Below are positions 6,857 to 24,543 of a stretch of DNA of 51,508 nucleotides, piece after piece. Position numbers and translations under genes: made by a program. The notes beneath the pieces are model-generated. The model ran no database searches, was not told where the DNA came from, and was given only the letters and a program-made list of their open reading frames with translations. Position 1 is the first letter of the stretch, and each line of letters begins with the position of its first letter. Where the stretch lies: positions 1 to 51,508 of the forward strand of contig JAPULJ010000119.1 in assembly GCA_027295145.1 (NCBI GenBank). Direction: 5' to 3'. This stretch comes from Alphaproteobacteria bacterium. GTDB lineage: Bacteria; Pseudomonadota; Alphaproteobacteria; JAPULJ01.

Positions 6857-6866
6857 TTGATTTAAA

Positions 6867-6941: not shown

Positions 6942-7062
6942 TTGCAACGGCCAATCGACATCATCGACCGCGCCGTATCGTTGGAGAATCGGTTATCCTT
7001 CAATCGTGGCGACTTTGCAACCCCGGCCGTCTGCAGGGTTATGGTGCTCGAATATTGCCGCT

Positions 7063-7422: not shown

Positions 7423-7597
7423 GAACGCTATCCCATCCTTGATCAACAACCTAAGAATTGCATGCTAACTATTCTTGCGTTGCCAAAGTGTAAAGAGAGT
7501 CCCCGCAGACGCAAGCCCCAGAGGACAATTTTTCACGATTGATTTATCATATCATGGGGGCGCGTGACAGCGGCCGCACGATGGTCTATTTGGTCTT

Positions 7598-8503
7598 GTG
7601 ATGGATACGCTCGCGCAGTTCGCCGCCCTCAGCGCATGCCCGTGCGATACCCTCGCCGGCGAGGCGCAGACTGTACCGATAATATTCGCCTCCCCGCACA
7701 GCGGTCGCGACTATCCCGCCTCGTTCGTTGCCGCCTCCCGCCTCGATCCGCTGACCCTGCGGCGCTCGGAGGATTCCTTCGTCGACGAGTTGTTCGTGGC
7801 CGCCCCCAATCTCGGCGCGCCGCTGCTGCGGGCGCTGTTTCCGCGCGCCTATGTCGACCCCAACCGCGAGCCCTATGAGCTCGACCCTTCAATGTTCGAT
7901 GGCGACCTGCCCGATGAGGCCAACACCACCTCGCCACGGGTGGCGGCCGGGCTCGGCACGATTGCCCGGGTCGTTTCCAGCGGCGCGGAGATCTACGATG
8001 GCAAGCTCAGCGTCGACGATGCACTGCGCCGGATCGAGACCTTCTATCGACCCTACCATGCCGAACTCCGCCGTCTGGTTGAGCGAACCAAAGCCAAGTT
8101 CGGGGCGGCCCTTCTGGTCGACTGCCATTCGATGCCCTCGGTCGGCGGGCCGATGGATCAGGATCCAGGCCTCAAGCGGGTCGATTTCGTGCTCGGGGAC
8201 GCTCACGGCGCATCCTGCGCACCAGCCCTGAGCGATGCGGTCGGCACTTTCCTGCACGATGCCGGTTACATCGTCACCCGAAATGCACCTTACGCCGGCG
8301 GATTTACGACACGCCACTACGGCCGACCCAGCGAGGGCGTCCACGCCCTGCAGATCGAGATCAATCGGGCGCTCTACATGAACGAGGCCACGTACGAAAG
8401 AAAACCCTATTTCGCAACCCTCGCCCGGCACATGGGCGAACTCGCTGGTGTCCTCTCCGATCTCGACCCGTGCAGACTGGTGGCCGATGGACCCAGCGCC
8501 TAG
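7598..8503 (+). CDS. N-formylglutamate amidohydrolase family protein
   Basis: The IIFASPHSGRDYP and LLVDCHSMPS motifs and the ~300-aa length are typical of the FGase family. The start could be GTG 7598 or ATG 7601. Confidence 0.8.
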   Translation: MMDTLAQFAALSACPCDTLAGEAQTVPIIFASPHSGRDYPASFVAASRLDPLTLRRSEDSFVDELFVAAPNLGAPLLRALFPRAYVDPNREPYELDPSMFDGDLPDEANTTSPRVAAGLGTIARVVSSGAEIYDGKLSVDDALRRIETFYRPYHAELRRLVERTKAKFGAALLVDCHSMPSVGGPMDQDPGLKRVDFVLGDAHGASCAPALSDAVGTFLHDAGYIVTRNAPYAGGFTTRHYGRPSEGVHALQIEINRALYMNEATYERKPYFATLARHMGELAGVLSDLDPCRLVADGPSA

Positions 8504-8996: not shown

Positions 8997-9812
8997 ATGT
9001 CAAACCGATCCGGAATTAGGGCGGCGATCGCGGGGTCCGCGCTGTTCGCCTCAGCCGTCGCACTGGCCCCGGGACCTGCTGCCAGCGCAGCCAAAATATC
9101 TCTGCGTTCCAATGATTTATGCGCCAGCCTAATCCTGCGTACGGAAGGGCAGCGGGGCATTCCCGCGCGTCTTTTGGGCGCAATTTCGCTCGCCGAATCG
9201 GGTCGCTTCGACCCTGGTAGCCAGGCAACAATTGCCTGGCCCTGGACCGTAAACGCCGGCGGTGATTCTCGCTACTATGCGACAAAGTCGCAGGCGATCG
9301 CCGGGGTCCGCCGCCTAAAGGCCCGCGGAGTCCGCAATATCGATGTCGGCTGTATGCAGGTCAACCTGATGCACCACCCCAAAGCCTTTACCAGCCTCGA
9401 AGCCGCCTTCGATCCTAAGACCAACGTCGCCTATGCGGCCAGCTATCTCAAAAAACTGCAAGGCACGTCCGGCTCGTGGGTCAGCGCTGTCGCCTCCTAC
9501 CACTCCGGCGATATGCGGCGAGGGCATCCCTATATGTTGCGCGTCCTGAAGATCTGGATGGGACGGCCGGGCGGTGCCAGGCCAACCCCACTGGCGAGCC
9601 TGGGCCGAATCCGACAGGCGGGATCGGCCCGTTTGGCAATTCGATCGCCGCGAGGCAACTGGCGTTCGGCAAGCCTAGTGCGCCGTGCCACCGCCCTACG
9701 CACTGTCAAGGCGCGGCGCAAATGGGCGGAAGTGGTGGCGCGCCGAAAGCGCTTTGCCGAATTACTTGGCCGCCGCCAGGCCGCACGCTGGGCCAAGCGC
9801 GACCCTTCGTAA
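8997..9812 (+). CDS. secreted lytic transglycosylase (SLT domain) protein
   Basis: ATG 8997 follows GGAGGGA. The signal peptide is SALFASAVALAPGPAASA. The SLT-like core contains AISLAESGRF...WPWTVN...NIDVGCMQVNLMHH...AASYL. Confidence 0.78.
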   Translation: MSNRSGIRAAIAGSALFASAVALAPGPAASAAKISLRSNDLCASLILRTEGQRGIPARLLGAISLAESGRFDPGSQATIAWPWTVNAGGDSRYYATKSQAIAGVRRLKARGVRNIDVGCMQVNLMHHPKAFTSLEAAFDPKTNVAYAASYLKKLQGTSGSWVSAVASYHSGDMRRGHPYMLRVLKIWMGRPGGARPTPLASLGRIRQAGSARLAIRSPRGNWRSASLVRRATALRTVKARRKWAEVVARRKRFAELLGRRQAARWAKRDPS

Positions 9813-10003
9813 TCCCGAATGGGTGATCATGCTGCCTAGTGGGGATTTCTCGGCTTCGCGTTCCCTATCGGTCAATTTCATGGTATTTGCTGATCCGAGT
9901 TGCATTGGTTCCTGCCATCGGCTTGAGGTGAAGCTGACAGCGCGCGGTGTTGCCGAAAGGGGCTGCGAAGCTGGGTGCGGTAGCCGCGAGGAGGGGCGTC
10001 GGG

Positions 10004-11152
10004 ATGACCGCCGAGGCGGGTTGGTTTAAAACCTCCCGGGATGGCGATTGCCTGGTGGTCGAGACCGGCGGGCGCTGGAACGTGCGCACGGTCGAGGCGC
10101 TGGAGGGGAAACTCCGGAAGATCGGTGTTGAAGCGCGCACGGGTTCACCAGCAACACGTGCGCGCATCGACATGACGGCGGTCGATGCCCTCGACACCGC
10201 TGGCGCCTGGCTCATCACCCGCACCCGGCTGGGGCTGTCGGCGGCGGGAATTCAAGCCGAGGTGACGGGCGCCGGGGCCGCCTATGTCGCGCTCTTGGAG
10301 CGTGTCGAGAAGGCGCTGGCACTCGAACGGCCCGAACCCCAAAAGGCCAACCGGTTCTTTAGGCTGCTCGAAGGGCTGGGCAAGGCCCAGTTCGAAATGT
10401 TCGCCGTAGCCCGCAACCTTCTTTCCTTCTTCGGCCTGACTCTCATCGTGTTCTTTCGAGTGTTATTGCGGCCGGGCCGCCTGCGCTTCACCGCGCTGGT
10501 CTTTCGGATGCATTCGACGGGCATGAGCGCCCTGCCAATCGTCGGCTTGCTGTCGTTTCTGATCGGCGTCGTCGTCGCCTTCCAGGGCGCCGACCAGTTG
10601 CGCCAGTTCGGCGCCGAGATCTTCACCGTCAATCTGCTGGGAGTATCGATCCTGCGCGAGCTGGGTCCGCTGATCACGGCGATCCTCATCGCCGGCCGCT
10701 CGGGCAGCGCCTTCACCGCGCAGATCGGCACCATGAAGGTGAACCAGGAGATCGACGCGATGGAAACCATCGGCCTAGACCCGATTGAGATCCTGGTCAT
10801 TCCGCGCGTACTTGCGCTGATGATCACGTTGCCGCTGTTGGTCTTCTACGCCGACATCATGGCCATGCTGGGCGGCATGCTGATGGCGACGACGGCGCTC
10901 GATATATCGGTCTCGACTTTCCTCAAGCAGCTTCAGAGCTCGGTCACGATCACCACTTTCATGGTCGGCATGGTCAAGGCGCCGGTCTTTGCCTTCCTGA
11001 TCTCGCTGGTCGGATGTTTCGAAGGCTTCAACGTTTCTGGCAGCGCCGAAAGCGTCGGCCGCAAAACGACGACCTCAGTAGTCGAGGCGATCTTCCTGGT
11101 CATTGTCGTCGACGCTGCCTTTTCCATCACCTTCTCGTTCCTGGGGATCTGA
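10004..11152 (+). CDS. MlaE-family ABC transporter permease with N-terminal STAS-like extension
   Basis: ATG 10004 follows GAGGAGGGG. The C-terminal 260 aa are a typical MlaE permease (RQFGAEIFTVNLLGVSILRELGPLITAILIAGRSGSAFTAQIGTMKVNQEIDAME). It precedes the ATPase and MCE genes. Confidence 0.85.
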   Translation: MTAEAGWFKTSRDGDCLVVETGGRWNVRTVEALEGKLRKIGVEARTGSPATRARIDMTAVDALDTAGAWLITRTRLGLSAAGIQAEVTGAGAAYVALLERVEKALALERPEPQKANRFFRLLEGLGKAQFEMFAVARNLLSFFGLTLIVFFRVLLRPGRLRFTALVFRMHSTGMSALPIVGLLSFLIGVVVAFQGADQLRQFGAEIFTVNLLGVSILRELGPLITAILIAGRSGSAFTAQIGTMKVNQEIDAMETIGLDPIEILVIPRVLALMITLPLLVFYADIMAMLGGMLMATTALDISVSTFLKQLQSSVTITTFMVGMVKAPVFAFLISLVGCFEGFNVSGSAESVGRKTTTSVVEAIFLVIVVDAAFSITFSFLGI

Positions 11153-11157
11153 AAGGA

Positions 11158-11919
11158 ATGACGGAACAACCGATCATCAGAATCCGGGGTTTGAGAACCC
11201 AGTTCGGGACGAGCGTCATTCATGACGATCTCGATCTCGACGTGCGCCGGGGCGAAGTGCTGGGGGTTGTCGGCGGCTCGGGCACCGGTAAATCGGTGCT
11301 GCTGCGCACGATCATCGGCCTCAACAAGGCGCGCGCCGGCACGATCGAGGTGTTCGGCGAAAATATGACGCAGATGTCTGATACCCAGCAGCGGGTGATG
11401 CAGGAACGCTGGGGGGTCCTGTTCCAGGACGGCGCGCTATTCAGCTCGCTGACCGTGGCCCAGAACATCGAAGTGCCCCTGAAAGAACACACCAAACTCA
11501 AGCGTGACGTCATCCGCGAGCTTTCCGCGGTCAAGGTCGACATGGTCGGTTTGCCGCCCGATGCGGCCTACAAATATCCGTCCGAGCTGTCCGGGGGCAT
11601 GCGCAAACGCGCCGGGTTGGCGCGCTCGCTGGCCCTCGATCCCGAGCTTGTATTTCTCGACGAGCCCACTGCCGGCCTCGATCCGATCGGCGCGGCGGCC
11701 TTCGACAATCTGATCCGCAACCTTCAACAAAGTTTGAACCTCACCGTTTTCATGGTAACCCACGATCTCGATTCTTTGGCCGCTGTCTGTGACCGCATCG
11801 CCGTGTTAATCGACAAAAAGATCGTAGTGGACACCATGGAAAATTTGATGGAATTGGAACATCCATGGATGCAGGATTACTTTCATGGACCGCGTAGCCG
11901 CGCGGCGATGAAAATGTAA
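11158..11919 (+). CDS. MlaF-like ABC transporter ATP-binding protein
   Basis: ATG 11158 lies 6 nt after the permease stop. It has Walker A GGSGTGKS, signature LSGGMRKR and Walker B LVFLDEP. Confidence 0.9.
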   Translation: MTEQPIIRIRGLRTQFGTSVIHDDLDLDVRRGEVLGVVGGSGTGKSVLLRTIIGLNKARAGTIEVFGENMTQMSDTQQRVMQERWGVLFQDGALFSSLTVAQNIEVPLKEHTKLKRDVIRELSAVKVDMVGLPPDAAYKYPSELSGGMRKRAGLARSLALDPELVFLDEPTAGLDPIGAAAFDNLIRNLQQSLNLTVFMVTHDLDSLAAVCDRIAVLIDKKIVVDTMENLMELEHPWMQDYFHGPRSRAAMKM

Positions 11920-15470: not shown

Positions 15471-17303
15471 GTGAGCGAAGCCCGCGAGCAGTCTCCCGCC
15501 GGCCCGGTACAAGGCACTGCCGATCAGCGCTCGCGTGCGCAACGCTTGCGCCAGCTTCGCCTTCTAGTGCAATTCCTGCGCCCTTACCGGCTGCATATCG
15601 CCGGCGCTCTTGCCGCGCTGATCGTTGCGGCATCGACGGTGCTGGTCTTCGGAGTCGGGCTCAGATGGTTGGTCGACAAGGGGTTCTCCGGCGGCAACAC
15701 CGATCTTCTGGATCAGGCGCTGCTACTGCTTTTTGGGGTCATCGCGGTCATGTCGATGGCGACCTTTGCACGCTCCTTCATGGTCTCCTGGCTGGGCGAG
15801 CGGGTCGCCGCCGACATCCGCGCCGCGGTCTTCGGCAACGTTCTGCGGCTAACCCCCTCATTCTATGAGATCACGCCGATCGGCGAAGTGCTGTCGCGGC
15901 TGACTACCGATACGACGCTGCTGCAGACCATCGTCGGTTCGTCGGCCTCGATGGCTTTGCGCAATGTGCTGATGTTGTTCGGCGGCACCATCATGATGGT
16001 GGTGACCAGCCCAAAGCTGACCGGGCTGGTGGCGCTGGTGGTGCCCTTCGTCATGGTGCCGGTATTGGTCTACGGCCGCCGGGTGCGTCGGCTCAGCCGC
16101 GCCAGCCAGGACCGGATCGGTGATATCGGGGCCTATATCGAAGAAACACTGAATGCCATCCAGACTGTCCAGTCCTTCAGCCATGAGCCCCACGACGTAC
16201 GCCGCTTCAGCGGGCGGGTCGAGGAAGCCTTCCGCACCGCCATCTCCCGCATCCGCGCACGCTCCACCCTGGCGGCCATGGTCATCCTGCTGATATTCGG
16301 GGCCATTGGCGTGATCTTGTGGATCGGCGGCCGCGATTTAATGGCTGGGCGCATCACCGCCGGCGAGCTTTCAGCTTTCGTATTTTACGCCGTGGTCGTC
16401 GCCGGCTCGGTCGGCGCCATCGCCGAATTCATCGGAGATTTACAGCGCGCGTCCGGCGCCAGCGAACGACTGTTCGAGCTGCTGGCGACCGAGCCGAGCG
16501 TCGTGCCGCCGAAAAACCCCCTGCCGCTGCCCGTACCGGCCAAGGGTGAAATTATCCTCGACGACGTCGGATTCGTCTATCCCTCGCGGCCCGGGGACGC
16601 GGCGCTCGATCATTTCTCGCTTAAGATCGCCGGCGGCGAAAAGGTGGCATTGGTTGGGCCTTCGGGCGCCGGCAAATCGACCGTCTTTCAGCTTCTTCTG
16701 CGCTTTCACGATCCAAGGACCGGCGTCATCCGCTTCGACGGCGTGCCCCTCTACCGGGCCGACCAGACGGAGTTGCGCGCGCGTATCGGCCTGGTGCCGC
16801 AGGAGCCGGTGATTTTCGCTGACAATATTGCCGAAAACATCCGCTACGGCCGTCCCGAGGCCAGCGACGCGGAAGTCCGAGAAGCGGCCGAGGCCGCCGC
16901 TGCGCTGGAATTCATCGACCGGCTCCCGGACGGGTTCTCGACCCATCTCGGCGAGCGCGGGGTGCGTCTCTCAGGCGGCCAGCGTCAGCGCATCGCCATC
17001 GCCCGCGCGGTCCTGCGCGACCCGGCGCTGCTGCTGCTTGACGAGGCAACCAGCGCGCTCGACGCCGAAAGCGAGCGCATGGTGCAGCGCGCGCTCCGCG
17101 ACCTCATGGCCGGGCGCACAACGATCGTCATCGCTCACCGACTGGCCACCGTGAAGAATGCCGACCGCATCGTCGTGATCGATCATGGCAAGATCGTCGC
17201 CACCGGCACCCACGACAAGCTCAAACGCCAGGGCGGTCTCTACGCGCGCCTGGCTGCCTTGCAGTTCGATGCCACCGGCGAAGCTGATGGAGACGCGAAA
17301 TGA
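15471..17303 (+). CDS. ABCB-type exporter, fused transmembrane and ATP-binding domains (MsbA/Atm1-like)
   Basis: 610 aa with a six-helix TMD then an NBD carrying GPSGAGKST, LSGGQRQRIAIARA and LLLLDEATSALD. GTG start follows TGAGGT. Confidence 0.9.
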   Translation: MSEAREQSPAGPVQGTADQRSRAQRLRQLRLLVQFLRPYRLHIAGALAALIVAASTVLVFGVGLRWLVDKGFSGGNTDLLDQALLLLFGVIAVMSMATFARSFMVSWLGERVAADIRAAVFGNVLRLTPSFYEITPIGEVLSRLTTDTTLLQTIVGSSASMALRNVLMLFGGTIMMVVTSPKLTGLVALVVPFVMVPVLVYGRRVRRLSRASQDRIGDIGAYIEETLNAIQTVQSFSHEPHDVRRFSGRVEEAFRTAISRIRARSTLAAMVILLIFGAIGVILWIGGRDLMAGRITAGELSAFVFYAVVVAGSVGAIAEFIGDLQRASGASERLFELLATEPSVVPPKNPLPLPVPAKGEIILDDVGFVYPSRPGDAALDHFSLKIAGGEKVALVGPSGAGKSTVFQLLLRFHDPRTGVIRFDGVPLYRADQTELRARIGLVPQEPVIFADNIAENIRYGRPEASDAEVREAAEAAAALEFIDRLPDGFSTHLGERGVRLSGGQRQRIAIARAVLRDPALLLLDEATSALDAESERMVQRALRDLMAGRTTIVIAHRLATVKNADRIVVIDHGKIVATGTHDKLKRQGGLYARLAALQFDATGEADGDAK

Positions 17304-17650
17304 TTACTTGTTACCTGCGCTACATTATCGATCCCCGGTAGCTCGACGATTTCGAGCGCTATGCAAAACTCTGGATCCCGTTGGTGAATAAGTTCGGCGG
17401 TACCCATCACGGCTAATATCCGGCGTCCGAGGGCGCCAATGATATTGCCTTCGCGCTCTTCAGCTTTCCTTCGATGGCGGAATACGAAGCCTACCGCAGG
17501 AAGAGCTTCGAGGATCCCGACTGCAATGCCGCCTTCGACCACGCCGCCAAGACCCGATGCATTATCAGCTACGAGCGCAGCTTCCCGCGGCCAGTGTTCG
17601 AATTGAGTGGCGCGCGACAAATGAGCCTCAGCCAGCCTACCGCTGGGTGA
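17300..17650 (+). pseudogene. NIPSNAP-family protein gene with two in-frame stop codons
   Basis: ATG 17300 overlaps the exporter stop (ATGA). One frame reads MITCYLRYIIDPR*LDDFERYAKLWIPLVNKFGGTHHG*YPASEGANDIAFALFSFPSMAEYEAYRRKSFEDPDCNAAFDHAAKTRCIISYERSFPRPVFE.. with TAG at 17339-17341 and TAA at 17414-17416. Family assignment is from memory of NIPSNAP sequences. Confidence 0.55.
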
Positions 17651-18641
17651 ACTTCAACTCGATGCGGCGGTTCTTGCGCAGGGCTTCGTCGGTGCCGCCG
17701 TTGTCGAGCGGGTGGAATTCCCCGAAACCGGTCGGGGCGACGCGGCCCGGCGGGATGCCCTCGGCGATCAGGTAACGCACCACCGCTAAGGCGCGCGCTT
17801 GGCTAAGCTCCCAGTTCGAGGGGAACTTCTCGTTGTGGATCGGCCGGCGATCGGTGTGGCCATCGACCCGCAATATCCAGTCGATGTCCCGCGGAATTTT
17901 GACTGCGATCTCTTTCAAGGCTTTGGCGAGCTTGGCGAGCTGCGCCTTGCCGCCTTCCTGCAGCTCGGCCTCGCCGGTGGGGAACAGCACCTCGGACTGG
18001 AAGACGAAGCGGTCGCCGACAATGCGGATATCCTTTCGTTCCCCGAGAACCGCGCGCAAGCGCCCGAAAAACTCCGATCGGTAACGATTGAGCTCAAGCA
18101 CCTTGCGGGCGAGCGCCAGATTGAGGCGTTTGCCGAGGTCGGCGATCTTGACTTCCTGACCCGAAGCCTTCTTCTCCGAGGCTTGCAGCGCCTCCTGGAT
18201 CGACGCCAGCTGCCGGCGCAGCTCGGTGATCTGCTGATTGAGGATATCGAGCCGCGAGCGGGCCGTGGCGGAGAGCTTCTTTTCCGCCTCCAACGCCTTC
18301 TTGCTCGAGCCAGCAACACCGGCCAGCGCTTTGGCGCGCGCGCGGGCCTTGTCGCGCGCGGCCAGCGAGGCGCGCAGCTCGGCGGCGATCTCCGCCAGGG
18401 ATCGACTGAGGCCGGTGCTTTTATTTTGCTCGAGGGACAGAAGTTCGGAAAGCTCGGTGATGCGGCGGTTGAGCTGGATCATTGCCTTGTCGCGACCGGT
18501 CAGCGCGTCGGTCAGGTAAAACTGTCCGACCATGAAAATCATCAACACGAAGATGATCAGCATCAGTAGCGAGGCCAGCGCATCGACGAAGCCGGGCCAG
18601 ATATCGAAGGGACGCCGGGTGCCGCGTGCCGAAATCGCCAT
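17637..18641 (-). CDS. MotB/OmpA-family protein with long coiled-coil linker (stator B-subunit-like)
   Basis: N-terminal TM helix with a conserved Asp (FDIWPGFVDALASLLMLIIFVL). About 150 aa of heptad-like Ala/Leu/Glu/Lys/Arg sequence follow. The C-terminal OmpA domain reads RVDGHTDRRP...SNWELSQARALAVVRYL...NRRIELKF. Confidence 0.8.
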   Translation of the reverse strand: MAISARGTRRPFDIWPGFVDALASLLMLIIFVLMIFMVGQFYLTDALTGRDKAMIQLNRRITELSELLSLEQNKSTGLSRSLAEIAAELRASLAARDKARARAKALAGVAGSSKKALEAEKKLSATARSRLDILNQQITELRRQLASIQEALQASEKKASGQEVKIADLGKRLNLALARKVLELNRYRSEFFGRLRAVLGERKDIRIVGDRFVFQSEVLFPTGEAELQEGGKAQLAKLAKALKEIAVKIPRDIDWILRVDGHTDRRPIHNEKFPSNWELSQARALAVVRYLIAEGIPPGRVAPTGFGEFHPLDNGGTDEALRKNRRIELKFTQR

Positions 18642-18655
18642 GCTCTATCGCCCCA

Positions 18656-19594
18656 CTACTTTCCCCTGTCGGCGAGTGCCGCGATGGTCTTGGCAAGCAA
18701 ACGGATGTCGCTACTCATCTGTTCGGAGAGGGTGCCGACGCGGGCGGTCATGGCGGTCATGGTGGCGATCGTGGTGGCGTGGCGGTCGTCCTCGCTCGAC
18801 AACGAGCGCTGCAGCTTGTCGATGCTCTCGGCGGTCTGTTCGAGCAGGGCCTGAATATAGGCCGGAACCGAACCATCGCCCTCGGCGCCACCGATCGACG
18901 TGGCAAGGCGGGTCTCGCCGCTCAGCCATTCTTCAAGGTCGTGGTAGAATCGGTTCTGGGCCTGACCCGCCTGAAGATCGAGAAAGCCCAGGATCAACGA
19001 GCCGCCAAGACCGAAGAGCGAGGAGCTGAAGGCCGTCCCCATGCCGGAAAGCGGCGCCTGCAGGCCGCGTTTCAGATCGCCGAATATGCTGGCGATATCG
19101 CCCGATCCAATGGCCAGCGAGCCGACCACGCCGGCCACCGAACTCACCGTTTCGAGCAGCCCCCAGAAGGTGCCCAACAGGCCGAGGAACACCAGTAACC
19201 CGACCATGTAACGGGCGATCTCGCGCGATTCATCGAGCCGCGAGCCGATGCCGTCGAGGAGCGAGCGCATCGCCGCGGCGGTGAGCCGCAGCGCGCCACC
19301 CTCGCGGTCGCGTAGCAGAGTCGCCATCGATGCCAGAACCCGCGGCGGGTTCTCCGGAGAGGTCCAGCTTTGGTGGCGCCTGAAATTCTCGATCCAGTCG
19401 GCCGCCGGCCTCAAAAGGAACACTTGGCGGAAGATGTAGAGAATTCCGATCAGCAAAACACCGAGGATGACCCCATTGAGGACCGGATTCGCCATGAAGG
19501 CATCGCGCAAGGCGACGTACAACGCTCCTAGCGCGGCCAGAACGGCGATCACGAATACGCCCATGCGGAAAAGGTACGCGGTGGGTCGGGTCAC
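18656..19594 (-). CDS. MotA/TolQ/ExbB proton-channel family protein, 4 TM, with ~100-aa C-terminal tail
   Basis: GTG start follows GGAG. Two N-terminal TM helices, a ~70-aa loop, then LGLLGTFWGLLETV and GMGTAFSSSLFGLGGSLILGF. These parallel TolQ in this window (FIGLFGTVWGIMNSF and IAEALLATALGLVAAIPAVVGF). It ends 14 nt before the MotB-like gene. Confidence 0.72.
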   Translation of the reverse strand: MTRPTAYLFRMGVFVIAVLAALGALYVALRDAFMANPVLNGVILGVLLIGILYIFRQVFLLRPAADWIENFRRHQSWTSPENPPRVLASMATLLRDREGGALRLTAAAMRSLLDGIGSRLDESREIARYMVGLLVFLGLLGTFWGLLETVSSVAGVVGSLAIGSGDIASIFGDLKRGLQAPLSGMGTAFSSSLFGLGGSLILGFLDLQAGQAQNRFYHDLEEWLSGETRLATSIGGAEGDGSVPAYIQALLEQTAESIDKLQRSLSSEDDRHATTIATMTAMTARVGTLSEQMSSDIRLLAKTIAALADRGK

Positions 19595-19643
19595 CGTGCC
19601 GCTCCGATTGCATCCGCGCCGCTATCTCGCGCGATCATCGCCG

Positions 19644-20618
19644 CTACTGCCCCACCAGCACGAGATCAACCCGATCGATCGGTTTCTCGGTGGTGTTGCT
19701 GCCAAGGGCGCGAACCTCGGTGCGGGTCCCCTGGATTCCCGCCTTGATCATGTGCAGTCGCACCGCCAAAGCGCGGGACAATGACAGGCGCCGCGCCTTG
19801 TTGCCGCTGGCATAGGCGTAGATCACCAGCCGGCTCTTGGCGTTCCGGAAAAGGCTCTGGATGACCGGTGTCATGTTTTGCCGGGCCGCTGCGGTAAGCT
19901 GGGTGGAGCCCTTGGCGAAGGCAATACGCATCTTACCGGTAGACGGGGTGCGGTTGGCTGTCTGGCCCGCGGGATTGCTGGTGGTAGGTTTGCTGACGGC
20001 CGGTTTGCTGACGGCCGGTTTGCTGGAAGCGGGTTTACCGGCAGCAGGCGTGCTGGCGGCGGGAGGTGCAACGCGTTCCGATTTGTTGGCGGATTTAACC
20101 GCTACCTTTGGCGCGGCCTTTCGGAGATCTTTGGGCTGGGCTGCAGCCCGGATGCGGGCCTCTTCCTCTTTCCGCGCATTTTTTTCCAACGCCATCTTGC
20201 GTTGTTCGGCCTCCTTGCGGTCAGCCTCGGCACGTTGGCGCGCTTCCTCGGCCTCGCGCGCGGCGGCGGCTTTCCGGCGATCCTGCTCGGCGCGCCGCTT
20301 GGTCGCCGCCTTTCGTGCGATATCCGCCTGCTCGCGCTCTGTCGCGGCGCGTTGGGCGGCGGCGCGTTGGGCAGCTTCCCGGTTGGCAATCTCGGCGCGG
20401 ATGGCGGCCGGCGGCCTGAGCTCGATCGGCACTCCGGCAGACCCGCGCCTGGCCGGCGGCAGGGTATCGATTGCGCCGAGATCAACCTCTACGGCGGAAG
20501 CGGCGAGAGAAGGCGTCGCTGCCGGCAACACTGCAATACTGATCGCCAGCAACGCGCCGAGGCGACATGCGCGAGCTACCAACCAGCGCACGCGTGGTTC
20601 ACCTGTCGAGGAAAGCAT
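19644..20618 (-). CDS. exported TolA-like charged protein with degenerate OmpA-like C-terminal domain
   Basis: Signal or anchor sequence RLGALLAISIAVLPAATPSLAASA. An Ala/Glu/Arg/Lys helical tract (REAAQRAAAQRAATEREQADIARKAATKRRAEQDRRKAAAAREAEEARQRAEADRKEAEQRK) is followed by KPxxS repeats. The C-terminal region IAFAKGSTQL...LSLSRALAVRLHMIKAGI...IDRVDLVLV resembles an OmpA-like fold. The start is ambiguous (ATG 20618 or GTG 20591). Confidence 0.6.
   Translation of the reverse strand: MLSSTGEPRVRWLVARACRLGALLAISIAVLPAATPSLAASAVEVDLGAIDTLPPARRGSAGVPIELRPPAAIRAEIANREAAQRAAAQRAATEREQADIARKAATKRRAEQDRRKAAAAREAEEARQRAEADRKEAEQRKMALEKNARKEEEARIRAAAQPKDLRKAAPKVAVKSANKSERVAPPAASTPAAGKPASSKPAVSKPAVSKPTTSNPAGQTANRTPSTGKMRIAFAKGSTQLTAAARQNMTPVIQSLFRNAKSRLVIYAYASGNKARRLSLSRALAVRLHMIKAGIQGTRTEVRALGSNTTEKPIDRVDLVLVGQ
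19986..20045 (-). repeat. 4 x 15-bp in-frame tandem repeat (KPxxS pentapeptides)
   Basis: On the plus strand, ggtttgctgacggcc occurs twice (19986-20000, 20001-20015). Two degenerate units follow, ggtttgctggaagcg and ggtttaccggcagca. Together they encode KPASSKPAVSKPAVSKPTTS on the minus strand. Confidence 0.8.
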
Positions 20619-20924
20619 CGGCTCCGATCCCAACAATTTAAACTCAAAGGAAGGCGCAACGCCGATTTGCGGCCGCCGCCCGCATCGATTGCACCATAGC
20701 TTAGCGGCCTTGCGTGCGACAACTCGTTTGACACCCCAGTGAAAAAGCGCCCGAACGCTAGGCAGCCATTATGGCGAAATGACGACGTCCGATTTGGTCT
20801 ATATTTGGCCCCGTCGGGATGACGCCGGTGCGAAGTAAAACCTCCAACCGAAAGCCAGTGACCAGCTTCCGCCAAGGGCAACCGCCCCGTGCCTCCAGGA
20901 AACGACAATAGGTACCGCATGGTA

Positions 20925-21731
20925 TCAACCAGCCAGCGCCTTTTTAAGCAATTGCGCCAGATCATTGTGGAGTTTCTCGTTCGAGGCGAGGATGTTACCG
21001 CTCGCCAAAACGTTGGTCCGGCCATCGAAATCGGAGACCATCCCGCCGGCCTCGCGCACCAGCAGCAAGCCGCCGGCGATGTCCCACGGCTCAAGCCCGA
21101 ATTCCCAGAAACCGTCATAGCGGCCGGCGGCAAGGTAGGCGAGATCAAGGGCGGCCGAACCGAAACGCCTGACCCCGGCAACCTCCTGGACCATTGCCTG
21201 TAGGGTCTGGAAGTAGCGCGGCTCGGGGTCGTGGCCCTTGAACGGAAGCCCGGTCGCGATCAAGGACTCGGCGAGCACGGTGCGCCCGGATACGCGGAGC
21301 CGCTGGTCGTTGAGGTAAGCGCCAATACCCCTCTCGGCCCAGAAGAACTCGTCATGGACCGGCTCGTATACTGCGGCAGCAATGATTTCGCCGTCCCGCT
21401 GGTGGGCGATCGAGATGGCAAAATGGGGGATCCCGTGAAGGAAGTTCGTGGTCCCGTCCAGCGGGTCGACAATCCAGCAATTGTGCTCATCCTCGCCCGC
21501 GATCTCGCCCTGTTCCTCAAGCAGGAAACTGAACTTCGGCCGCGCCTTGGTCAATTCCTCGCGCAGGACCTGCTCGGCCTTGAGGTCGGCCGCGGTGACG
21601 AAATCGGCCGGTCCCTTGCGCGAGACCTGAAGCTGTTCGACCTCGCCAAAATCGCGCGCCAGCCCGCGCGCTGCCTTGCGGGCAGCGCGTTCGATGACGT
21701 TGATGATCGCCGATTTCCTCGTCGATTGCAT
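20925..21731 (-). CDS. suhB: inositol monophosphatase family protein
   Basis: 268 aa with the WIVDPLDGTTNFLHG motif and GSAALDLAYLAAGRYDGFWE. Confidence 0.9.
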   Translation of the reverse strand: MQSTRKSAIINVIERAARKAARGLARDFGEVEQLQVSRKGPADFVTAADLKAEQVLREELTKARPKFSFLLEEQGEIAGEDEHNCWIVDPLDGTTNFLHGIPHFAISIAHQRDGEIIAAAVYEPVHDEFFWAERGIGAYLNDQRLRVSGRTVLAESLIATGLPFKGHDPEPRYFQTLQAMVQEVAGVRRFGSAALDLAYLAAGRYDGFWEFGLEPWDIAGGLLLVREAGGMVSDFDGRTNVLASGNILASNEKLHNDLAQLLKKALAG

Positions 21732-22418: not shown

Positions 22419-23369
22419 TCAGGCGCGCTGCCAGAATGGTCGCCTCGCGGTCGCCACGTAGATGCCCGTAAGGATCAGCCCGACGCCGGCGAGATGGTAG
22501 AAGTGCAGCGACTCGCCCAACAGGAGCATCGCCAGCCCCGTGGCGAATGCAGGTACCAGATGCAGAAACAGGCTCGCCTTGCCGGCCCCGATGGCGCGCA
22601 CGCCGAAGTTCCAACAAATATAGGCGCCGATCGAGGCGAAGAACGCGAGGTAGGCGATGCCGCCGACGCTGCGGGCGGTCAGGATGATATCCCCGCCCAG
22701 CCAACGCTCGACCACGAAAGCTGGCAGCAGCATCACGATCCCGCCGATCATGATCGTGGCAAGGAAATTGAGCGGCTCAAGCTCGCTCGGCCAATGACGC
22801 AGAAGAACGCTGTAAAGCGACCAGAGAAAGAGGGCGAAGAAAATGAGCAGATCGCCGGTCCCCAAATCGAGCGCCAAGAGCGCCCACACGTCACCGTGCG
22901 AAATGATGGTGACGGCGCCGACCAGCGAGACTGCAACGCCGATTCCCTGGCGCCAACTATTACGCTCGCCCAGCCCGGCCCAGGAAATGACGATGACGAA
23001 GATCGGCGTCGCGGCGTTCATCAACGAGCCATTGATCGCGGTGGTCGTCTTAAGGCCGTAGTAGATGAGGGTATTGAAGACGGTAACGCCGAGGAATGAG
23101 AAAACCACCAACCGCTTCCACTCAACGGCAACGACCGCGCGCTGGGCCCACAGCCCGCGCGCGACAAAAGGCAGGAAAACGACAGCGGCAATACCCCAGC
23201 GCAAGAAGGCCAGCGCCATGGGCGGCACGTCCTCGTAGATCGCCCGCCCGACGATCCAGTTGCCGCTCCACAGGAACGCCGTCACGAGGAGCGCGAGATA
23301 GGGGAGCATTGTTCCCCGAGCGCCACCCACAGGCCGGGGGCTTGTCGTAACTTCACCTAGATCAGCCAT
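22419..23369 (-). CDS. EamA/DMT-family transporter
   Basis: Ten-helix membrane ORF with duplicated EamA halves (LLVTAFLWSGNWIVGR.., ..LFLWSLYSVLLR..). An alternative start is at 23309. Confidence 0.82.
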   Translation of the reverse strand: MADLGEVTTSPRPVGGARGTMLPYLALLVTAFLWSGNWIVGRAIYEDVPPMALAFLRWGIAAVVFLPFVARGLWAQRAVVAVEWKRLVVFSFLGVTVFNTLIYYGLKTTTAINGSLMNAATPIFVIVISWAGLGERNSWRQGIGVAVSLVGAVTIISHGDVWALLALDLGTGDLLIFFALFLWSLYSVLLRHWPSELEPLNFLATIMIGGIVMLLPAFVVERWLGGDIILTARSVGGIAYLAFFASIGAYICWNFGVRAIGAGKASLFLHLVPAFATGLAMLLLGESLHFYHLAGVGLILTGIYVATARRPFWQRA

Positions 23370-23433
23370 GCGAGCTAGTGGATAAAATCCAACAAATGGT
23401 ACCCATACGATTCCGTATCCTGGCTACTATCCA

Positions 23434-24543
23434 CTAAAACGTCACCACGCTGCGGATGCTTTTACCCTCGTGCATCAGATCGAAGGCGTCGTTGATCTTG
23501 TCGAGCTTCATGGTGTGGGTGATCAGATCGTCGATGTTGATCTTGCCGTCCATGTACCAATCGACGATGCGCGGAACTTGGGTTCGGCTCCTGGCGCCAC
23601 CAAAGGCGGTGCCCTTCCACACCCGTCCGGTGACCAGCTGGAAGGGCCGGGTCGAGATTTCCTGCCCTGCCCCGGCGACGCCGATGATGACCGAGACCCC
23701 CCAGCCCCGGTGACAGCATTCGAGGGCCTGGCGCATGGTCTCGACATTGCCGATGCACTCGAAGCTGTAATCGGCGCCACCCTTGGTCAACTCGACCAGA
23801 TGGCCGACGACGTCGCCACCGATTTCCTTGGGGTTGACGAAATCGGTCATCCCGAATTTTTCGGCCAGCGCCCGCTTACCCGGATTGGTGTCGACCCCAA
23901 TGATACGATCGGCGCCGGCCATCCTCGCCCCCTGAACTACGTTGAGCCCGATGCCGCCGAGCCCGAAGACGACGACGTTGGCGCCCGGCTCGACCTTGGC
24001 CGTGTTGATGACCGCGCCGATGCCGGTAGTGACCCCGCAGCCGATGTAACAAATCTTCTCGAACGGCGCGTCGTCGCGCACCTTGGCCAGTGCGATCTCG
24101 GGCAGCACGGTGAAATTTGCGAAGGTCGAGGTTCCCATATAATGATGCAGGCTGTCCTTGCCGATCCGGAACCGGCTGGAGCCGTCGGGCATCACCCCGC
24201 GCCCTTGGGTCTCGCGGATCGCGGTGCACAAATTGGTCTTGCCCGACAGGCACGATTTGCAGGCGCGGCATTCTGGAATGTAGAGCGGGATTACGTGATC
24301 GCCCTTGGCCAAACCGCTCACCCCCTTGCCGATATCGATAACGACCCCCGCCCCCTCGTGGCCGAGGATCGCTGGGAACAGTCCCTCGGGATCGTCCCCC
24401 GACAGGGTGAAGGCATCGGTGTGGCAGATCCCAGTCGCCTTGATCTCGACCAGAACCTCGCCTTCCTTCGGTCCGTCGAGCGTGACCGTTTCTATAGTGA
24501 GCGGCTTGCCGGCGGCGTGGGCGACGGCGGCGCGGATCTCCAT
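23434..24543 (-). CDS. adhC: S-(hydroxymethyl)glutathione dehydrogenase / class III alcohol dehydrogenase
   Basis: 369 aa with [52 protein letters not shown] and VFGLGGIGL. Confidence 0.93.

What the first reader, a model, noticed from the sequence alone, without database searches (positions are those of the whole stretch)
17637..20618. Orphan MotA/MotB-type stator module with a TolA-like third partner and no recognisable output machinery
Three co-oriented minus-strand genes are separated by only 49 and 14 nt. Gene A (19644..20618) is an exported or anchored protein with a TolA-like charged helical tract, KPxxS repeats and a degenerate OmpA-like end. Gene B (18656..19594) is a 4-TM MotA/TolQ/ExbB-type protein. 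Its two channel helices (LGLLGTFWGLLETV, GMGTAFSSSLFGLGGSLILGF) parallel the canonical TolQ in this same window, and it has an extra ~100-aa cytoplasmic tail. Gene C (17637..18641) is MotB-type. It has the invariant TM Asp (GFVDALASLL), an unusually long ~150-aa coiled coil that could span the periplasm, and a canonical OmpA/PG-binding domain. The neighbours are suhB/efp on one side and a decayed NIPSNAP-like gene plus an ABC exporter on the other. No flagellar, TonB-dependent receptor, gliding or Zorya (ZorC/D) genes are adjacent, and tolQRA is present separately at 49396 onward. This looks like a second ion-driven 5:2-type envelope motor whose function I cannot name.
Basis: partly seen in the sequence, partly recalled or inferred. 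Interest (0 to 1): 0.75.

Follow-up and report, generated by a model that had tools for sequence, protein, structure and literature searches.

The report
Housekeeping Zorya-like envelope motor operon
Three adjacent genes encode an ion-driven membrane motor pair, related to flagellar stators and closest to the Zorya anti-phage motor, plus a secreted helper protein with a cell-wall-binding-type domain; the set sits beside housekeeping genes in many Alphaproteobacteria, and I found no published function for it.

Summary
Three co-oriented minus-strand genes, A (19644-20618), B (18656-19594) and C (17637-18641), lie 49 and 14 nt apart.

- **B** has the MotA/ExbB/TolQ/ZorA fold. It falls below Pfam's cut-off, and its best profile matches are ZorA models, not flagellar MotA.
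- **C** is a MotB/ZorB-type subunit with an invariant transmembrane Asp20, a coiled coil of about 155 residues and a canonical OmpA domain. It is a full member of NCBIfam PRK09039.
- **A** is not TolA-like. It has a cleavable signal peptide, a fast-evolving linker and a degenerate OmpA-fold domain.

B-C is an obligate pair: C followed B in all 50 loci with enough downstream sequence. It lies downstream of suhB in 39 of 40 loci, at ordinary GC content and with no Zorya effectors nearby. B's cytoplasmic tail (about 75-380 aa) and C's coiled coil (about 110 to over 1000 aa) vary greatly in length, but their ends are conserved.

The most likely reading is a peptidoglycan-anchored, ion-driven 5:2 motor of ZorAB architecture used for a core-genome function, with its output through B's cytoplasmic tail. 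I found no functional study. Sinorhizobium meliloti carries B-C (inferred SMc03993/SMc03992), so the system can be tested genetically.

Verdict: a new variant of a known kind, of moderately high interest.

The parts
19644..20618 (-). Gene A: secreted periplasmic accessory protein (324 aa from the ATG start)
   Evidence: ORF. Pfam OmpA 31.4 bits, above the 27.2 cut-off. Orthologues lie directly upstream of B in 32 of 45 metagenome loci by tblastn, and several further loci hold more divergent A-like ORFs. Only 106 homologues were found, against more than 8000 each for B and C, so A evolves fast.
20493..20618 (-). A: signal peptide (aa 1-42, predicted cleavage after A-S-A)
   Evidence: A 12-residue hydrophobic core is followed by PSLAASA|VEVDL. 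Homologues end in AxA|Q and then share a V-x-V-D-L motif. The cleavage site is inferred from the sequence pattern only.
20142..20411 (-). A: charged Arg/Glu/Ala/Lys single helix (aa 70-159)
   Evidence: AF2 models one helix over residues 70-159 with pLDDT 90-98. It shows no heptad periodicity (z = -1.3). It is present only in the window and its nearest relatives; other orthologues have Pro/Ala-rich linkers.
19944..20141 (-). A: disordered Pro/Lys/Ser linker containing the (AVSKP)n repeats
   Evidence: pLDDT is below 50. A perfect 15-nt tandem repeat of 2.6 copies lies at 19987-20025.
19647..19943 (-). A: degenerate OmpA-like domain (aa 226-324)
   Evidence: pLDDT 94-98. The top Foldseek hits in PDB are OmpA-like domains and Pal (E = 1e-7, TM-score normalised to the target up to 0.79). 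ARRLSLSRALAVR and RVD are invariant, but the GHTD Asp is replaced by AYA(G/S)G in all orthologues.
18656..19594 (-). Gene B: A-subunit of a 5:2-type ion-driven motor (312 aa), ZorA-like
   Evidence: Pfam MotA_ExbB 19.3 bits, below the 22.9 cut-off. PADLOC ZorA1 E = 9e-12. All 38 family members tested hit ZorA1 and ZorA3. In the Foldseek search with the AF2 model, the top 49 hits are all TolQ, ExbB, ZorA or MotA. The family spans 2624 clusters at 50% identity.
19415..19567 (-). B: TM1-TM2 hairpin (aa 10-60)
   Evidence: Hydropathy and AF2 helices 5-33 and 37-74. N40, G41 and G50 are invariant.
18977..19219 (-). B: TM3, periplasmic loop and TM4 channel core (aa 126-206), with FLGLLGT142FWG and GMGT187AFS190SS
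   Evidence: This is the most conserved block of the family: F136-G145 and G184-G195 are almost wholly invariant. It aligns with the window's TolQ TM3 motif. It is the region matched by the ZorA and MotA_ExbB profiles.
18659..18976 (-). B: cytoplasmic helical tail (aa 207-312) ending in the conserved tip DIRLLAKTIAALAD
   Evidence: AF2 helices 245-267 and 272-310. Heptad periodicity z = 4.8. Tail length in the family is about 75-383 aa and bimodal. The tip motif occurs in 124 of 170 proteins. Long tails are built from DExTRxHxRNxD repeats.
17637..18641 (-). Gene C: B-subunit (MotB/ZorB type), PRK09039 'peptidoglycan-binding protein' (334 aa)
   Evidence: NCBIfam NF006543 451 bits, above the 305 cut-off. 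C lies immediately downstream of B in every locus with enough sequence: 48 of 50 by an N-terminal match, and the other two by a C-terminal match.
18525..18605 (-). C: transmembrane helix with invariant W-P-G-x-V-D20 (Asp codon at 18582-18584)
   Evidence: It aligns with the FVD of the window's TolR.
18042..18509 (-). C: periplasmic coiled coil (aa 45-200), the shortest form of a hypervariable stalk
   Evidence: No Pro, and heptad z = 5.2. The two ends are conserved and the middle is an insert of 0 to over 900 residues. Total C length is 313-551 aa in the samples, 661-692 aa in L007/L009 and about 1250 aa in L001.
17640..18029 (-). C: canonical OmpA/MotB peptidoglycan-binding domain (aa 205-334)
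   Evidence: Pfam OmpA 68.4 bits. The best PDB sequence hits are MotS, MotB and PomB (E down to 1.6e-18). GHTD, NWELSxAR and NRRIE are invariant.
20925..21731 (-). suhB (inositol-monophosphatase family): a conserved upstream neighbour, possibly co-transcribed in some genomes
   Evidence: suhB lies upstream of (A)-B-C in 39 of 40 metagenome loci with at least 2.5 kb upstream, in all alphaproteobacterial genome loci examined, and overlaps A by 4 nt in L010. In this window a weak terminator-like hairpin lies between suhB and A, at 20746-20764.

Best explanation
B and C form a peptidoglycan-anchored, ion-driven rotary complex of the 5:2 class (B5:C2), built like ZorAB.

**Proposed mechanism**

1. 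Two C subunits sit inside a B pentamer.
2. Each C Asp20 faces a ring of polar residues from B's TM3 and TM4 (Thr142, Thr187, Ser190-192).
3. C's OmpA domain, held on a dimeric coiled-coil stalk, binds peptidoglycan. This fixes C and probably opens the channel.
4. Ion flow then turns the B pentamer around the fixed C dimer.
5. B's C-terminal helices bundle into a cytoplasmic tail, which carries the output into the cell. This contrasts with Tol and Ton, whose output goes into the periplasm through TolA or TonB.
6. A is a secreted, fast-evolving accessory protein with an OmpA-fold domain. I suggest it helps position or stabilise C at the wall, much as MotY does for PomAB.

Unlike Zorya, the module is a vertically inherited core-genome operon with no nuclease effector. 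Its job is therefore a housekeeping one, most plausibly coupling the state of the envelope or cell wall to a cytoplasmic process.

**Shown:** domain content, fold class, conserved residues, obligate B-C pairing, synteny, and variable tail and stalk lengths.

**Inferred:** the 5:2 stoichiometry, rotation, gating by peptidoglycan, output through the tail, the role of A, and the physiological function.
For: **Fold and family of B**
- The Foldseek top 49 hits are all TolQ, ExbB, ZorA or MotA chains (prob 1.0, best E = 1.4e-3).
- All 38 family members tested hit the ZorA1 and ZorA3 profiles over TM3-TM4 (best E = 4.7e-17).
- The TM3 motif is shared with the window's TolQ.

**C**
- W-P-G-x-V-D20 is invariant and the OmpA residues are canonical.
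- C is a full member of PRK09039.
- The best PDB relatives are MotS, MotB and PomB.

**Pairing and operon**
- The genes are separated by 14 nt here, and C follows B in every locus with enough sequence.

**ZorA-like tail**
- The tail is helical with heptad periodicity.
- Its length varies from about 75 to 383 aa through internal repeats, with a conserved first helix and tip.
- Published ZorAB structures show a tail bundled from five ZorA C-termini, a Ser/Thr ring around the ZorB Asp, and a requirement for peptidoglycan binding (PMC11890865).

**Housekeeping status**
- The order thiE-efp-suhB-(A)-B-C recurs in unrelated alphaproteobacterial genomes, including S. meliloti.
- suhB lies upstream in 39 of 40 loci.
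- B's identity to orthologues (58-61%) matches that of suhB (56-64%) and thiE (59-66%) in the same loci.
- GC content is ordinary.
- No effector genes are nearby.

**A**
- A has a signal peptide and an OmpA fold.
Against: - B misses Pfam's MotA_ExbB cut-off (19.3 against 22.9 bits).
- Neither B nor a profile of its family finds any 5:2 motor in PDB by sequence.
- The monomer model is only moderate (pLDDT 69), and the Foldseek E-values are modest.
- No multimer model could be made, so the 5:2 assembly and the tail bundle are untested.
- The window's tail is short (about 105 aa). It could fold back as a compact cap rather than a rod.
- No conserved cytoplasmic partner gene is present other than suhB, whose linkage may simply be inherited gene order.
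- C's stalk length (about 110 to over 1000 residues) fits no simple geometric model.
- A lacks the peptidoglycan-binding Asp and is absent from some genomes, so its role is guesswork.
- No phenotype data were retrievable.
Confidence: 0.5

Rival explanations
1. A periplasm-directed, Tol-Pal-like envelope system. The B-C motor uses ion flow to move or tension C's long coiled coil and A, so as to tether or remodel the inner membrane, peptidoglycan and outer membrane, for example during growth or division. B's tail serves only as a structural cap.
For: - Two of the three proteins carry wall-binding-type domains.
- C's long periplasmic coiled coil and A's extended linker look like spacers.
- In S. 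meliloti the locus lies two genes from rgsF (SMc03995), an essential polar-growth factor that co-purifies with TolQ/TolR partners.
- A ChvI-bound DNA fragment lies inside SMc03993, the inferred B orthologue.
- Alphaproteobacteria lack Lpp (my own knowledge).
Against: - No membrane-anchored TolA/TonB-type transducer is present. A has a cleavable signal peptide and no SxxxH helix, unlike this window's own TolA.
- C is an OmpA-type anchor like MotB, which is the static part in known motors.
- A is dispensable in several lineages.
- The strongly conserved tail tip of B argues that the cytoplasmic end matters.
- A canonical Tol system is already present.
Confidence: 0.25
2. A mostly static tether. 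C anchors the inner membrane to peptidoglycan, and B acts as its membrane chaperone or gate without sustained rotation or power output.
For: - The stalk length is hypervariable and polymorphic even between strains that share an identical B (692 against 661 aa). This is easier to tolerate in a tether than in a machine.
- No output partner was identified.
Against: The Asp20, the TM3/TM4 polar residues and the whole channel core are invariant across thousands of sequences. Such conservation is expected only if ion translocation is used.
Confidence: 0.1
3. An anti-phage Zorya variant, with a ZorAB core and unlinked or unrecognised effectors.
For: The best profile matches of B are the PADLOC ZorA1 and ZorA3 models, and C matches ZorB3 (86 bits). 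The architecture (tail plus peptidoglycan-binding domain) is that of ZorAB.
Against: - No ZorC, D, E, F or G genes are adjacent here or in about 100 loci.
- The chromosomal position next to suhB/efp is fixed, and divergence matches the neighbouring housekeeping genes. Zorya has a patchy distribution.
- NCBIfam ZorA scores are far below cut-off (16.8 against 100 bits).
- GC content is ordinary.
Confidence: 0.07
4. A paralogous flagellar stator (MotAB), as the NCBI names 'flagellar motor protein MotA' and 'chemotaxis protein MotB' suggest.
For: Source annotations use these names. The OmpA domain of C is most similar to those of MotS, MotB and PomB.
Against: - B has only a 65-residue TM2-TM3 loop instead of MotA's large torque-generating cytoplasmic domain.
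- hhalign against E. coli MotA gives a probability of 3.5%.
- NCBIfam MotB, MotD and MotS models score far below their cut-offs.
- No flagellar genes are nearby.
- S. meliloti has a separate motA (SMc03022) in its flagellar cluster.
- A recent survey reports that flagellar stators form one structurally conserved clade with features absent here (PMC12505986).
Confidence: 0.03

Closest known systems
ZorAB core of the Zorya anti-phage systems (types I-III)
   Same: - The MotA/ExbB-type pentamer-forming subunit has a C-terminal helical cytoplasmic extension of variable length.
- The partner subunit has a short N-terminus, a transmembrane Asp and a C-terminal peptidoglycan-binding OmpA-type domain.
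- ZorA profiles are the best sequence matches to B.
   Different: - There are no ZorC/D, ZorE or ZorF/G effectors.
- The module sits at a fixed housekeeping locus with vertical inheritance, not in a patchy defence island.
- The tail here is far shorter than the Shewanella type I ZorA rod (residues 237-696). It is about 105 aa in the window and at most about 380 aa in the family.
- C has a long coiled-coil stalk.
- An extra secreted protein (A) is encoded.
- NCBIfam ZorA cut-offs are not reached.
Flagellar stators MotAB/PomAB, with the periplasmic accessory MotY
   Same: - The B-subunit has a transmembrane Asp and an OmpA-type anchor, and its closest solved relatives are MotS, MotB and PomB.
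- The A-subunit has a four-helix topology.
- A secreted accessory protein with an OmpA-like domain recalls MotY (analogy from my own knowledge).
   Different: - There is no MotA torque-generating cytoplasmic domain, and homology to E. coli MotA is not detectable by hhalign.
- There is no flagellar gene context.
- A coiled-coil stalk replaces the plug and linker.
- A cytoplasmic tail is present.
TolQRA-Pal and ExbBD-TonB
   Same: - The A-subunit fold is shared, and TolQ and ExbB are the top Foldseek hits.
- The TM3 motif GLxGTxWG is shared with the window's TolQ.
- A three-gene layout with a wall-binding-type domain in the system.
   Different: - The B-subunit is OmpA/MotB type, not ExbD/TolR (PF02472).
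- The third protein is secreted. It has no SxxxH membrane anchor and no TolA-III or TonB C-terminal domain.
- A canonical TolQRA is present elsewhere in the same window.
NCBIfam PRK09039 'peptidoglycan-binding protein' and the 'generic ion transporter' (GIT) class of MotAB relatives (Puente-Lelievre et al. 2025)
   Same: C is a full-score member of PRK09039. B-C fits the broad description of non-flagellar A/B operons with extra terminal extensions.
   Different: PRK09039 is a name without a function. The GIT description says that B subunits lack an OmpA-homologous domain and the plug and linker, whereas C has a canonical OmpA domain and a long stalk. The module is therefore not a typical GIT as described there.

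Membership tests
MotA/ExbB/TolQ/ZorA superfamily (A-subunit of 5:2 motors) | Match to Pfam PF01618 at the gathering score | tested here: not met
   19.3 bits against a cut-off of 22.9. Other family members score 16-19.5 bits. The precomputed Pfam field is empty for all 120 homologues.
MotA/ExbB/TolQ/ZorA superfamily (A-subunit of 5:2 motors) | Characteristic helical fold of the subunit | tested here: met
   AF2 model with pLDDT 69. The Foldseek top 49 PDB hits are exclusively TolQ, ExbB, ZorA or MotA (prob about 1.0, TM-score normalised to the target up to 0.57, best E = 1.4e-3).
MotA/ExbB/TolQ/ZorA superfamily (A-subunit of 5:2 motors) | Conserved inner-helix motifs with Ser/Thr facing the partner's Asp | tested here: met
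   FLGLLGT142FWG aligns with the window TolQ's FIGLFGTVWG. T142, T187, S190 and S192 are invariant or nearly so. The spatial arrangement was not tested.
MotA/ExbB/TolQ/ZorA superfamily (A-subunit of 5:2 motors) | Adjacent partner gene encoding a single-pass protein with a transmembrane Asp | tested here: met
   C lies 14 nt downstream. D20 is invariant in 27 sequences. The pairing is found in every locus with enough sequence.
MotA/ExbB/TolQ/ZorA superfamily (A-subunit of 5:2 motors) | 5:2 stoichiometry and ion-driven rotation | not testable with these tools
   Only monomer prediction was available. This needs AlphaFold-Multimer, cryo-EM or biophysics.
Zorya (ZorAB plus effectors) | ZorA profile match | tested here: inconclusive
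   PADLOC ZorA1 E = 9e-12, and all 38 members tested hit ZorA1 and ZorA3. However, NCBIfam antiphage_ZorA_2 scores 16.8 bits against a cut-off of 100.
Zorya (ZorAB plus effectors) | Cytoplasmic helical tail on the A-subunit and a peptidoglycan-binding domain plus Asp on the B-subunit | tested here: met
   The features are as described in PMC11890865. The tail here is much shorter than in the type I ZorA described there.
Zorya (ZorAB plus effectors) | Adjacent effector genes (ZorC/ZorD, ZorE or ZorF/ZorG) | tested here: not met
   The neighbours are suhB, efp, a NIPSNAP pseudogene and an ABC exporter. No such genes occur in about 100 related loci.
Zorya (ZorAB plus effectors) | Patchy, island-like distribution typical of defence systems | tested here: not met
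   The position downstream of suhB is fixed in 39 of 40 loci. Divergence equals that of flanking housekeeping genes. GC content is ordinary.
Flagellar stator MotAB/PomAB | NCBIfam MotA/MotB equivalog at cut-off | tested here: not met
   C scores 105 bits against MotD (cut-off 283), 98 against MotS (264) and 67 against MotB (301). B hits no Mot model.
Flagellar stator MotAB/PomAB | Large MotA cytoplasmic torque-generating domain between TM2 and TM3 | tested here: not met
   The loop is about 65 residues. hhalign of the family against E. coli MotA gives a probability of 3.5%.
Flagellar stator MotAB/PomAB | Flagellar gene neighbourhood or function | tested here: not met
   No flagellar genes lie in the flanks of any locus. 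S. meliloti has a separate motA in its fli/flg cluster. Function was not tested.
Tol-Pal / Ton systems | B-subunit of ExbD/TolR type (PF02472) | tested here: not met
   C has no PF02472 match and carries an OmpA domain. The window's real TolR scores 100 bits.
Tol-Pal / Ton systems | Third partner anchored by an N-terminal transmembrane helix with an SxxxH motif, plus a TolA-III or TonB C-terminal domain | tested here: not met
   A has a cleavable-type signal peptide, no SxxxH motif and an OmpA-fold C-terminus. The window's TolA has SAVMH. The weak TIGR02794 hit (22 bits against a cut-off of 59) covers only the charged tract.
NCBIfam PRK09039 peptidoglycan-binding protein | Full-length match above the curated cut-off | tested here: met
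   NF006543 scores 451.2 bits against a cut-off of 305, covering residues 3-334.
OmpA-like peptidoglycan-binding domain (PF00691) | Domain match plus the conserved Asp/Arg pair that binds diaminopimelate | tested here: met
   For C: 68.4 bits, with GHTD264 and R283 invariant. Binding itself was not tested.
OmpA-like peptidoglycan-binding domain (PF00691) | The same features in gene A | tested here: inconclusive
   The fold and the Pfam cut-off are met (31.4 bits; Foldseek E = 1e-7). The Arg is kept, but the Asp position reads AYA(G/S)G in all orthologues.

The most novel reading that the evidence does not exclude
This is the housekeeping counterpart, and possibly the evolutionary source, of the Zorya motor. 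It would be a constitutive, wall-anchored rotary transducer, conserved across Alphaproteobacteria and some Gammaproteobacteria, that reports or exploits the mechanical state of the peptidoglycan and inner membrane and passes it to a cytoplasmic process through a rotating helical tail. The near-universally linked SuhB is a candidate partner. On this reading, envelope-to-cytoplasm signalling by 5:2 motors would be a general principle of cell physiology, not a specialisation of phage defence.
Probability: 0.2. Interest if true: 0.85.

Novelty: new variant of a known kind. Interest (0 to 1): 0.62.

Why it matters
Known 5:2 motors power flagella, Ton/Tol transport and envelope integrity, gliding with type IX secretion, and Zorya defence. 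This is a further, very widespread family: 2624 clusters at 50% identity, and more than 8000 clusters at 90% identity for each of B and C. It has a distinct architecture, combining a ZorA-like cytoplasmic tail, a MotB-like anchor on a hypervariable coiled-coil stalk and a secreted OmpA-fold accessory. It sits in the core genome, and I found no assigned function.

The model organism Sinorhizobium meliloti carries B-C next to suhB and rgsF, so deletion, D20N and tail-truncation mutants are straightforward to make. A function would add a new physiological role for ion-driven rotary motors. It would also show what the Zorya motor evolved from or alongside. In addition, the case is a practical warning for annotation: these genes are mislabelled 'flagellar motor protein MotA/MotB', and they produce partial Zorya hits in defence-system scans.

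Tried and rejected
1. **Sequence searches of B against PDB.** I tried the single sequence and a 38-sequence profile. Both returned only coiled-coil noise such as AhlC, stathmin and cavin, so they give no sequence-level support.
2. **hhalign of the B family against single sequences.** Against the window's TolQ only the 20-residue TM3 motif aligned (probability 48%). Against E. coli MotA there was nothing (3.5%). I could not obtain a ZorA sequence for a direct profile comparison.
3. **The genome-contig scan with a single protein.** I compensated with the look-up of encoding contigs and a metagenome scan.
4. **Looking up the window's own B protein.** It is not on record, so the source organism remains unidentified. 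The nearest relatives are uncultured Alphaproteobacteria.
5. **Literature.** Ten full-text searches covered PRK09039, 5:2 motor families, stator-like and MotA-like terms, Zorya homologues, the ExbB proton channel in rhizobia, ZorAB-like terms and SMc locus tags. None found a functional study. The only mention is SMc03993 as a ChvI-bound fragment.
6. **S. meliloti Tn-seq supplements** (PMC5929573). The stored tables are truncated and do not contain SMc03992/SMc03993 or Smed_2663/Smed_2664. The Rgs pull-down supplements do not list them either.
7. **Fusion partners.** Longer B homologues carry only more tail repeats or Pro-rich ends. One apparent MFS fusion looks like a gene-calling artefact.
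8. **Neighbours in gammaproteobacterial loci.** Nothing recurs.
9. **Other scans.** Rfam found nothing between 15000 and 23000. The promoter scan found no sigma-70-like site, and terminator-like hits were only about twice the number in shuffled sequence.
10. **Rejected idea: the minus-strand ORF 17240-17620 as a fourth gene.** It has no family hits, does not match the ORF downstream of C in the closest relative (L020), and overlaps the NIPSNAP frame.

Full report
**1. What is in the sequence**

| Gene | Coordinates | Length | Start |
|---|---|---|---|
| A | 19644-20618 | 324 aa | ATG preceded by GGAG; an upstream TTG at 20636 is less likely |
| B | 18656-19594 | 312 aa | GTG preceded by GGAG; the N-terminus matches homologues |
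| C | 17637-18641 | 334 aa | ATG |

- The gaps between the genes are 49 and 14 nt.
- GC content (0.63) is the same as in the rest of the window.
- Upstream lie suhB (20925-21731) and efp.
- Downstream lie a NIPSNAP reading frame on the opposite strand, broken by two in-frame stops (53 bits once the stops are bridged), and a convergent ABC exporter.
- Canonical tolQ and tolR (123 and 100 bits) are at 49396-50777. They are followed by a tolA that runs off the window end.

**2. Gene C**

C is a MotB/ZorB-type subunit.

- It scores 451 bits on NCBIfam NF006543 (PRK09039, 'peptidoglycan-binding protein', cut-off 305) over its full length.
- It scores 68 bits on Pfam OmpA.
- Its closest solved relatives are the peptidoglycan-binding domains of MotS, MotB and PomB.
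- In an alignment of 27 homologues, W-P-G-x-V-D20 in the single transmembrane helix is invariant. So are GHTD, NWELSxAR and NRRIE in the OmpA domain.
- The Asp aligns with the FVD of the window's own TolR.
- Residues 45-200 contain no proline and show strong heptad periodicity (z = 5.2).
- Both ends of this coiled coil are conserved, but the middle is an insert of very variable size. C is 313-551 aa in the samples, 661-692 aa in L007/L009 and about 1250 aa as a single ORF in L001.
- Strains that share an identical B differ in C length.

The window's C is close to the minimal form. The stalk cannot be a fixed ruler for the width of the periplasm.

**3. Gene B**

- B has a hydrophobic hairpin (TM1-TM2), a cytoplasmic loop of about 65 residues, TM3, a 30-residue periplasmic loop, TM4 and a C-terminal region of about 105 residues.
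- Pfam MotA_ExbB matches below its cut-off (19.3 against 22.9 bits). The same holds for other family members.
- PDB sequence searches find nothing relevant.
- Three lines of evidence nevertheless place B in the MotA/ExbB/TolQ/ZorA superfamily.
  - The invariant TM3 motif FLGLLGTFWG aligns with TolQ's FIGLFGTVWG.
  - Every one of 38 family members tested hits the PADLOC ZorA1 and ZorA3 models across TM3-TM4 (best E = 4.7e-17).
  - An AlphaFold2 model (pLDDT 69) retrieves only TolQ, ExbB, ZorA and MotA chains as its top 49 Foldseek hits (prob about 1.0).
- Flagellar MotA is the most distant of these relatives, with an hhalign probability of 3.5%.
- T142, T187 and S190-S192 are invariant or nearly so. 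They are candidates for the polar ring that surrounds the partner's Asp in ZorAB and MotAB (PMC11890865).

**4. The tail of B**

- The region after TM4 is helical with heptad periodicity (z = 4.8).
- Across the family it is about 75-383 residues long, with two modes near 90 and 165 residues.
- Long versions are built from repeats of the type DExTRxHxRNxD…RLxEE.
- The first tail helix (VPAYxQALLEQTAES) is conserved.
- A terminal motif, E-I-R-L-L-A-(R/K)-T-I-A-A-L-A-E, is also conserved. It is DIRLLAKTIAALAD in the window and is found in 124 of 170 proteins.
- A variable-length helical cytoplasmic extension on a MotA-like subunit is the hallmark of ZorA, whose five C-termini bundle into a tail required for function.

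**5. Gene A**

A is not TolA-like.

- It starts with a signal peptide. Homologues end in AxA|Q and are followed by a conserved V-x-V-D-L motif.
- In contrast, the window's real TolA has a membrane anchor with the S-x3-H motif (SAVMH).
- The AlphaFold2 model shows a 90-residue single helix (70-159, no heptad pattern), a disordered Pro/Lys/Ser linker and a confident α/β domain (pLDDT 94-98).
- The best structural matches of that domain are OmpA-like domains and Pal (E = 1e-7).
- The charged helix is confined to the window and its closest relatives. Other orthologues have Pro/Ala-rich linkers.
- The KPxxS repeats come from a perfect 15-nt tandem repeat.
- In the OmpA-like domain, the Arg of LSxxRA is invariant. 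The Asp of GHTD is replaced by AYA(G/S)G in all orthologues, so peptidoglycan binding is uncertain.
- A evolves much faster than B and C: 106 detectable homologues against more than 8000 each.

**6. Distribution and synteny**

- The B family comprises 2624 representative clusters at 50% identity with E ≤ 1e-3, and 544 at E ≤ 1e-30.
- In 80 metagenome loci, C followed B in all 50 loci with enough downstream sequence. In 48 this showed as an N-terminal match and in the other two as a C-terminal match.
- suhB lay upstream in 39 of 40 loci with at least 2.5 kb of upstream sequence.
- A was detected by tblastn in 32 of 45 loci.
- Several of the loci scored as lacking A hold divergent ORFs with a signal peptide, a Pro-rich stretch and an ARRLSL-type motif in the suhB-B gap.
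- A is truly absent where that gap is about 320 nt or less. This includes L006 and S. meliloti.
- The order thiE-efp-suhB-A-B-C recurs in several independent alphaproteobacterial genomes, and suhB-A-B-C occurs in another.
- Three gammaproteobacterial loci (Ectothiorhodospiraceae, Aquisalimonas) have B-C alone with unrelated neighbours.
- B's identity to its orthologues (58-61%) is like that of suhB (56-64%) and thiE (59-66%) in the same loci. This fits vertical descent under strong constraint.
- suhB overlaps A by 4 nt in one genome. In this window, about 300 nt and a weak terminator-like hairpin separate them.

**7. Literature**

- Ten full-text searches found no functional study of this family.
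- A 2025 survey of MotAB relatives describes heterogeneous non-flagellar 'generic ion transporters'. It states that their B subunits lack OmpA homology, which does not fit C.
- S. meliloti carries thiE2, rgsF (SMc03995), suhB (SMc03994), B, C, then a convergent ABC exporter and rpmE. B and C are therefore, by inference from consecutive numbering, SMc03993 and SMc03992.
- RgsF is an essential Sel1-repeat polar-growth factor.
- A ChvI-bound DNA fragment was mapped inside SMc03993 in a binding screen. This is a weak hint of envelope-stress regulation.
- The stored Tn-seq tables were truncated and gave no data for B or C.

**8. Interpretation**

The best-supported reading is a B5:C2 ion-driven rotary complex with ZorAB architecture.

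- C is fixed to peptidoglycan by its OmpA domain on a dimeric stalk.
- B rotates around C as ions pass the Asp20 and Ser/Thr site.
- The conserved cytoplasmic tail of B carries the output.
- A is a lineage-variable periplasmic accessory, comparable in logic to MotY.
- The effector-less core-genome context argues for a housekeeping role rather than defence.

The stoichiometry, rotation, gating, tail output and physiological role are all inferences, because no multimer modelling or phenotype data were available. The rival readings, with the evidence and the refuting result for each, are:

- a periplasm-directed Tol-like tether or force generator;
- a largely static tether;
- a Zorya variant with unlinked effectors;
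- a flagellar stator paralogue.

**9. Verdict**

Three points need correction: the 'TolA-like' reading of A, the idea that C's coiled coil serves as a periplasm-spanning ruler, and the impression that the module is an isolated orphan. The module belongs to a large family that databases name but that has not been studied. Its closest characterised relative is the Zorya motor. I rate it a new variant of a known kind, of moderately high interest, chiefly because it is widespread, conserved, architecturally distinct and present in a tractable model organism.

Noticed in passing
window 17303-17629 (+): A well-conserved NIPSNAP reading frame (PF07978, 53 bits once the stops are bridged) is interrupted by two in-frame stops, a TAG after ...IIDPR and a TAA after ...THHG. 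It is either a recent pseudogene or a sequencing error. The overlapping minus-strand ORF 17240-17620 has no family hits.
   Followed up: partly
window 20925-21731 (suhB) and loci L025-L104: suhB lies upstream of (A)-B-C in 39 of 40 metagenome loci and in all alphaproteobacterial genome loci examined. In L010 suhB overlaps gene A by 4 nt. The three gammaproteobacterial loci lack the linkage. I cannot tell whether this is a functional link or inherited gene order.
   Followed up: partly
L007, L008, L009 (C at about 9226-11304); L001 7197-10976: Strains that encode an identical B protein carry C proteins of 692 and 661 aa, and one has a disrupted copy. Another genome has a C of about 1250 aa. The periplasmic coiled coil therefore expands and contracts quickly, probably through internal repeats.
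   Followed up: partly
window 19987-20025: A perfect 15-nt tandem repeat (2.6 copies) encodes the (AVSKP)n stretch of gene A. This is evidence of recent slippage in a fast-evolving linker.
   Followed up: yes
L019 (S. meliloti Ak57, CP090106.1) 3430-8069: In S. meliloti the B-C pair lies two genes from rgsF (SMc03995), an essential Sel1-repeat polar-growth factor, and gene A is absent. A ChvI-bound fragment was reported inside SMc03993, the inferred B orthologue. The PLSDB record is labelled 'plasmid pSymB' but is 3.7 Mb long and carries rpmE, purE and suhB, so it is evidently the chromosome.
   Followed up: partly
window 49396-50265 (+): The tolQ ORF as listed (289 aa) begins with about 70 Gly/Thr-rich residues ahead of the first transmembrane helix. 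The first ATG is probably not the true start. ruvB and a ybgC-type thioesterase lie directly upstream, and tolR and tolA follow. The tolA has an SAVMH anchor and a Lys/Pro-rich domain and runs off the window end.
   Followed up: partly
window 22419-24543 (-): An EamA-family transporter gene and a class III alcohol dehydrogenase-like gene are inserted between thiE and efp, relative to most related genomes. The same insertion is present in the closest relative, L020.
   Followed up: no
window 42905-46429 (-): A large (1174 aa) multi-PAS histidine kinase, with four PAS_7 repeats plus HisKA and HATPase domains. It is unrelated to the finding.
   Followed up: no
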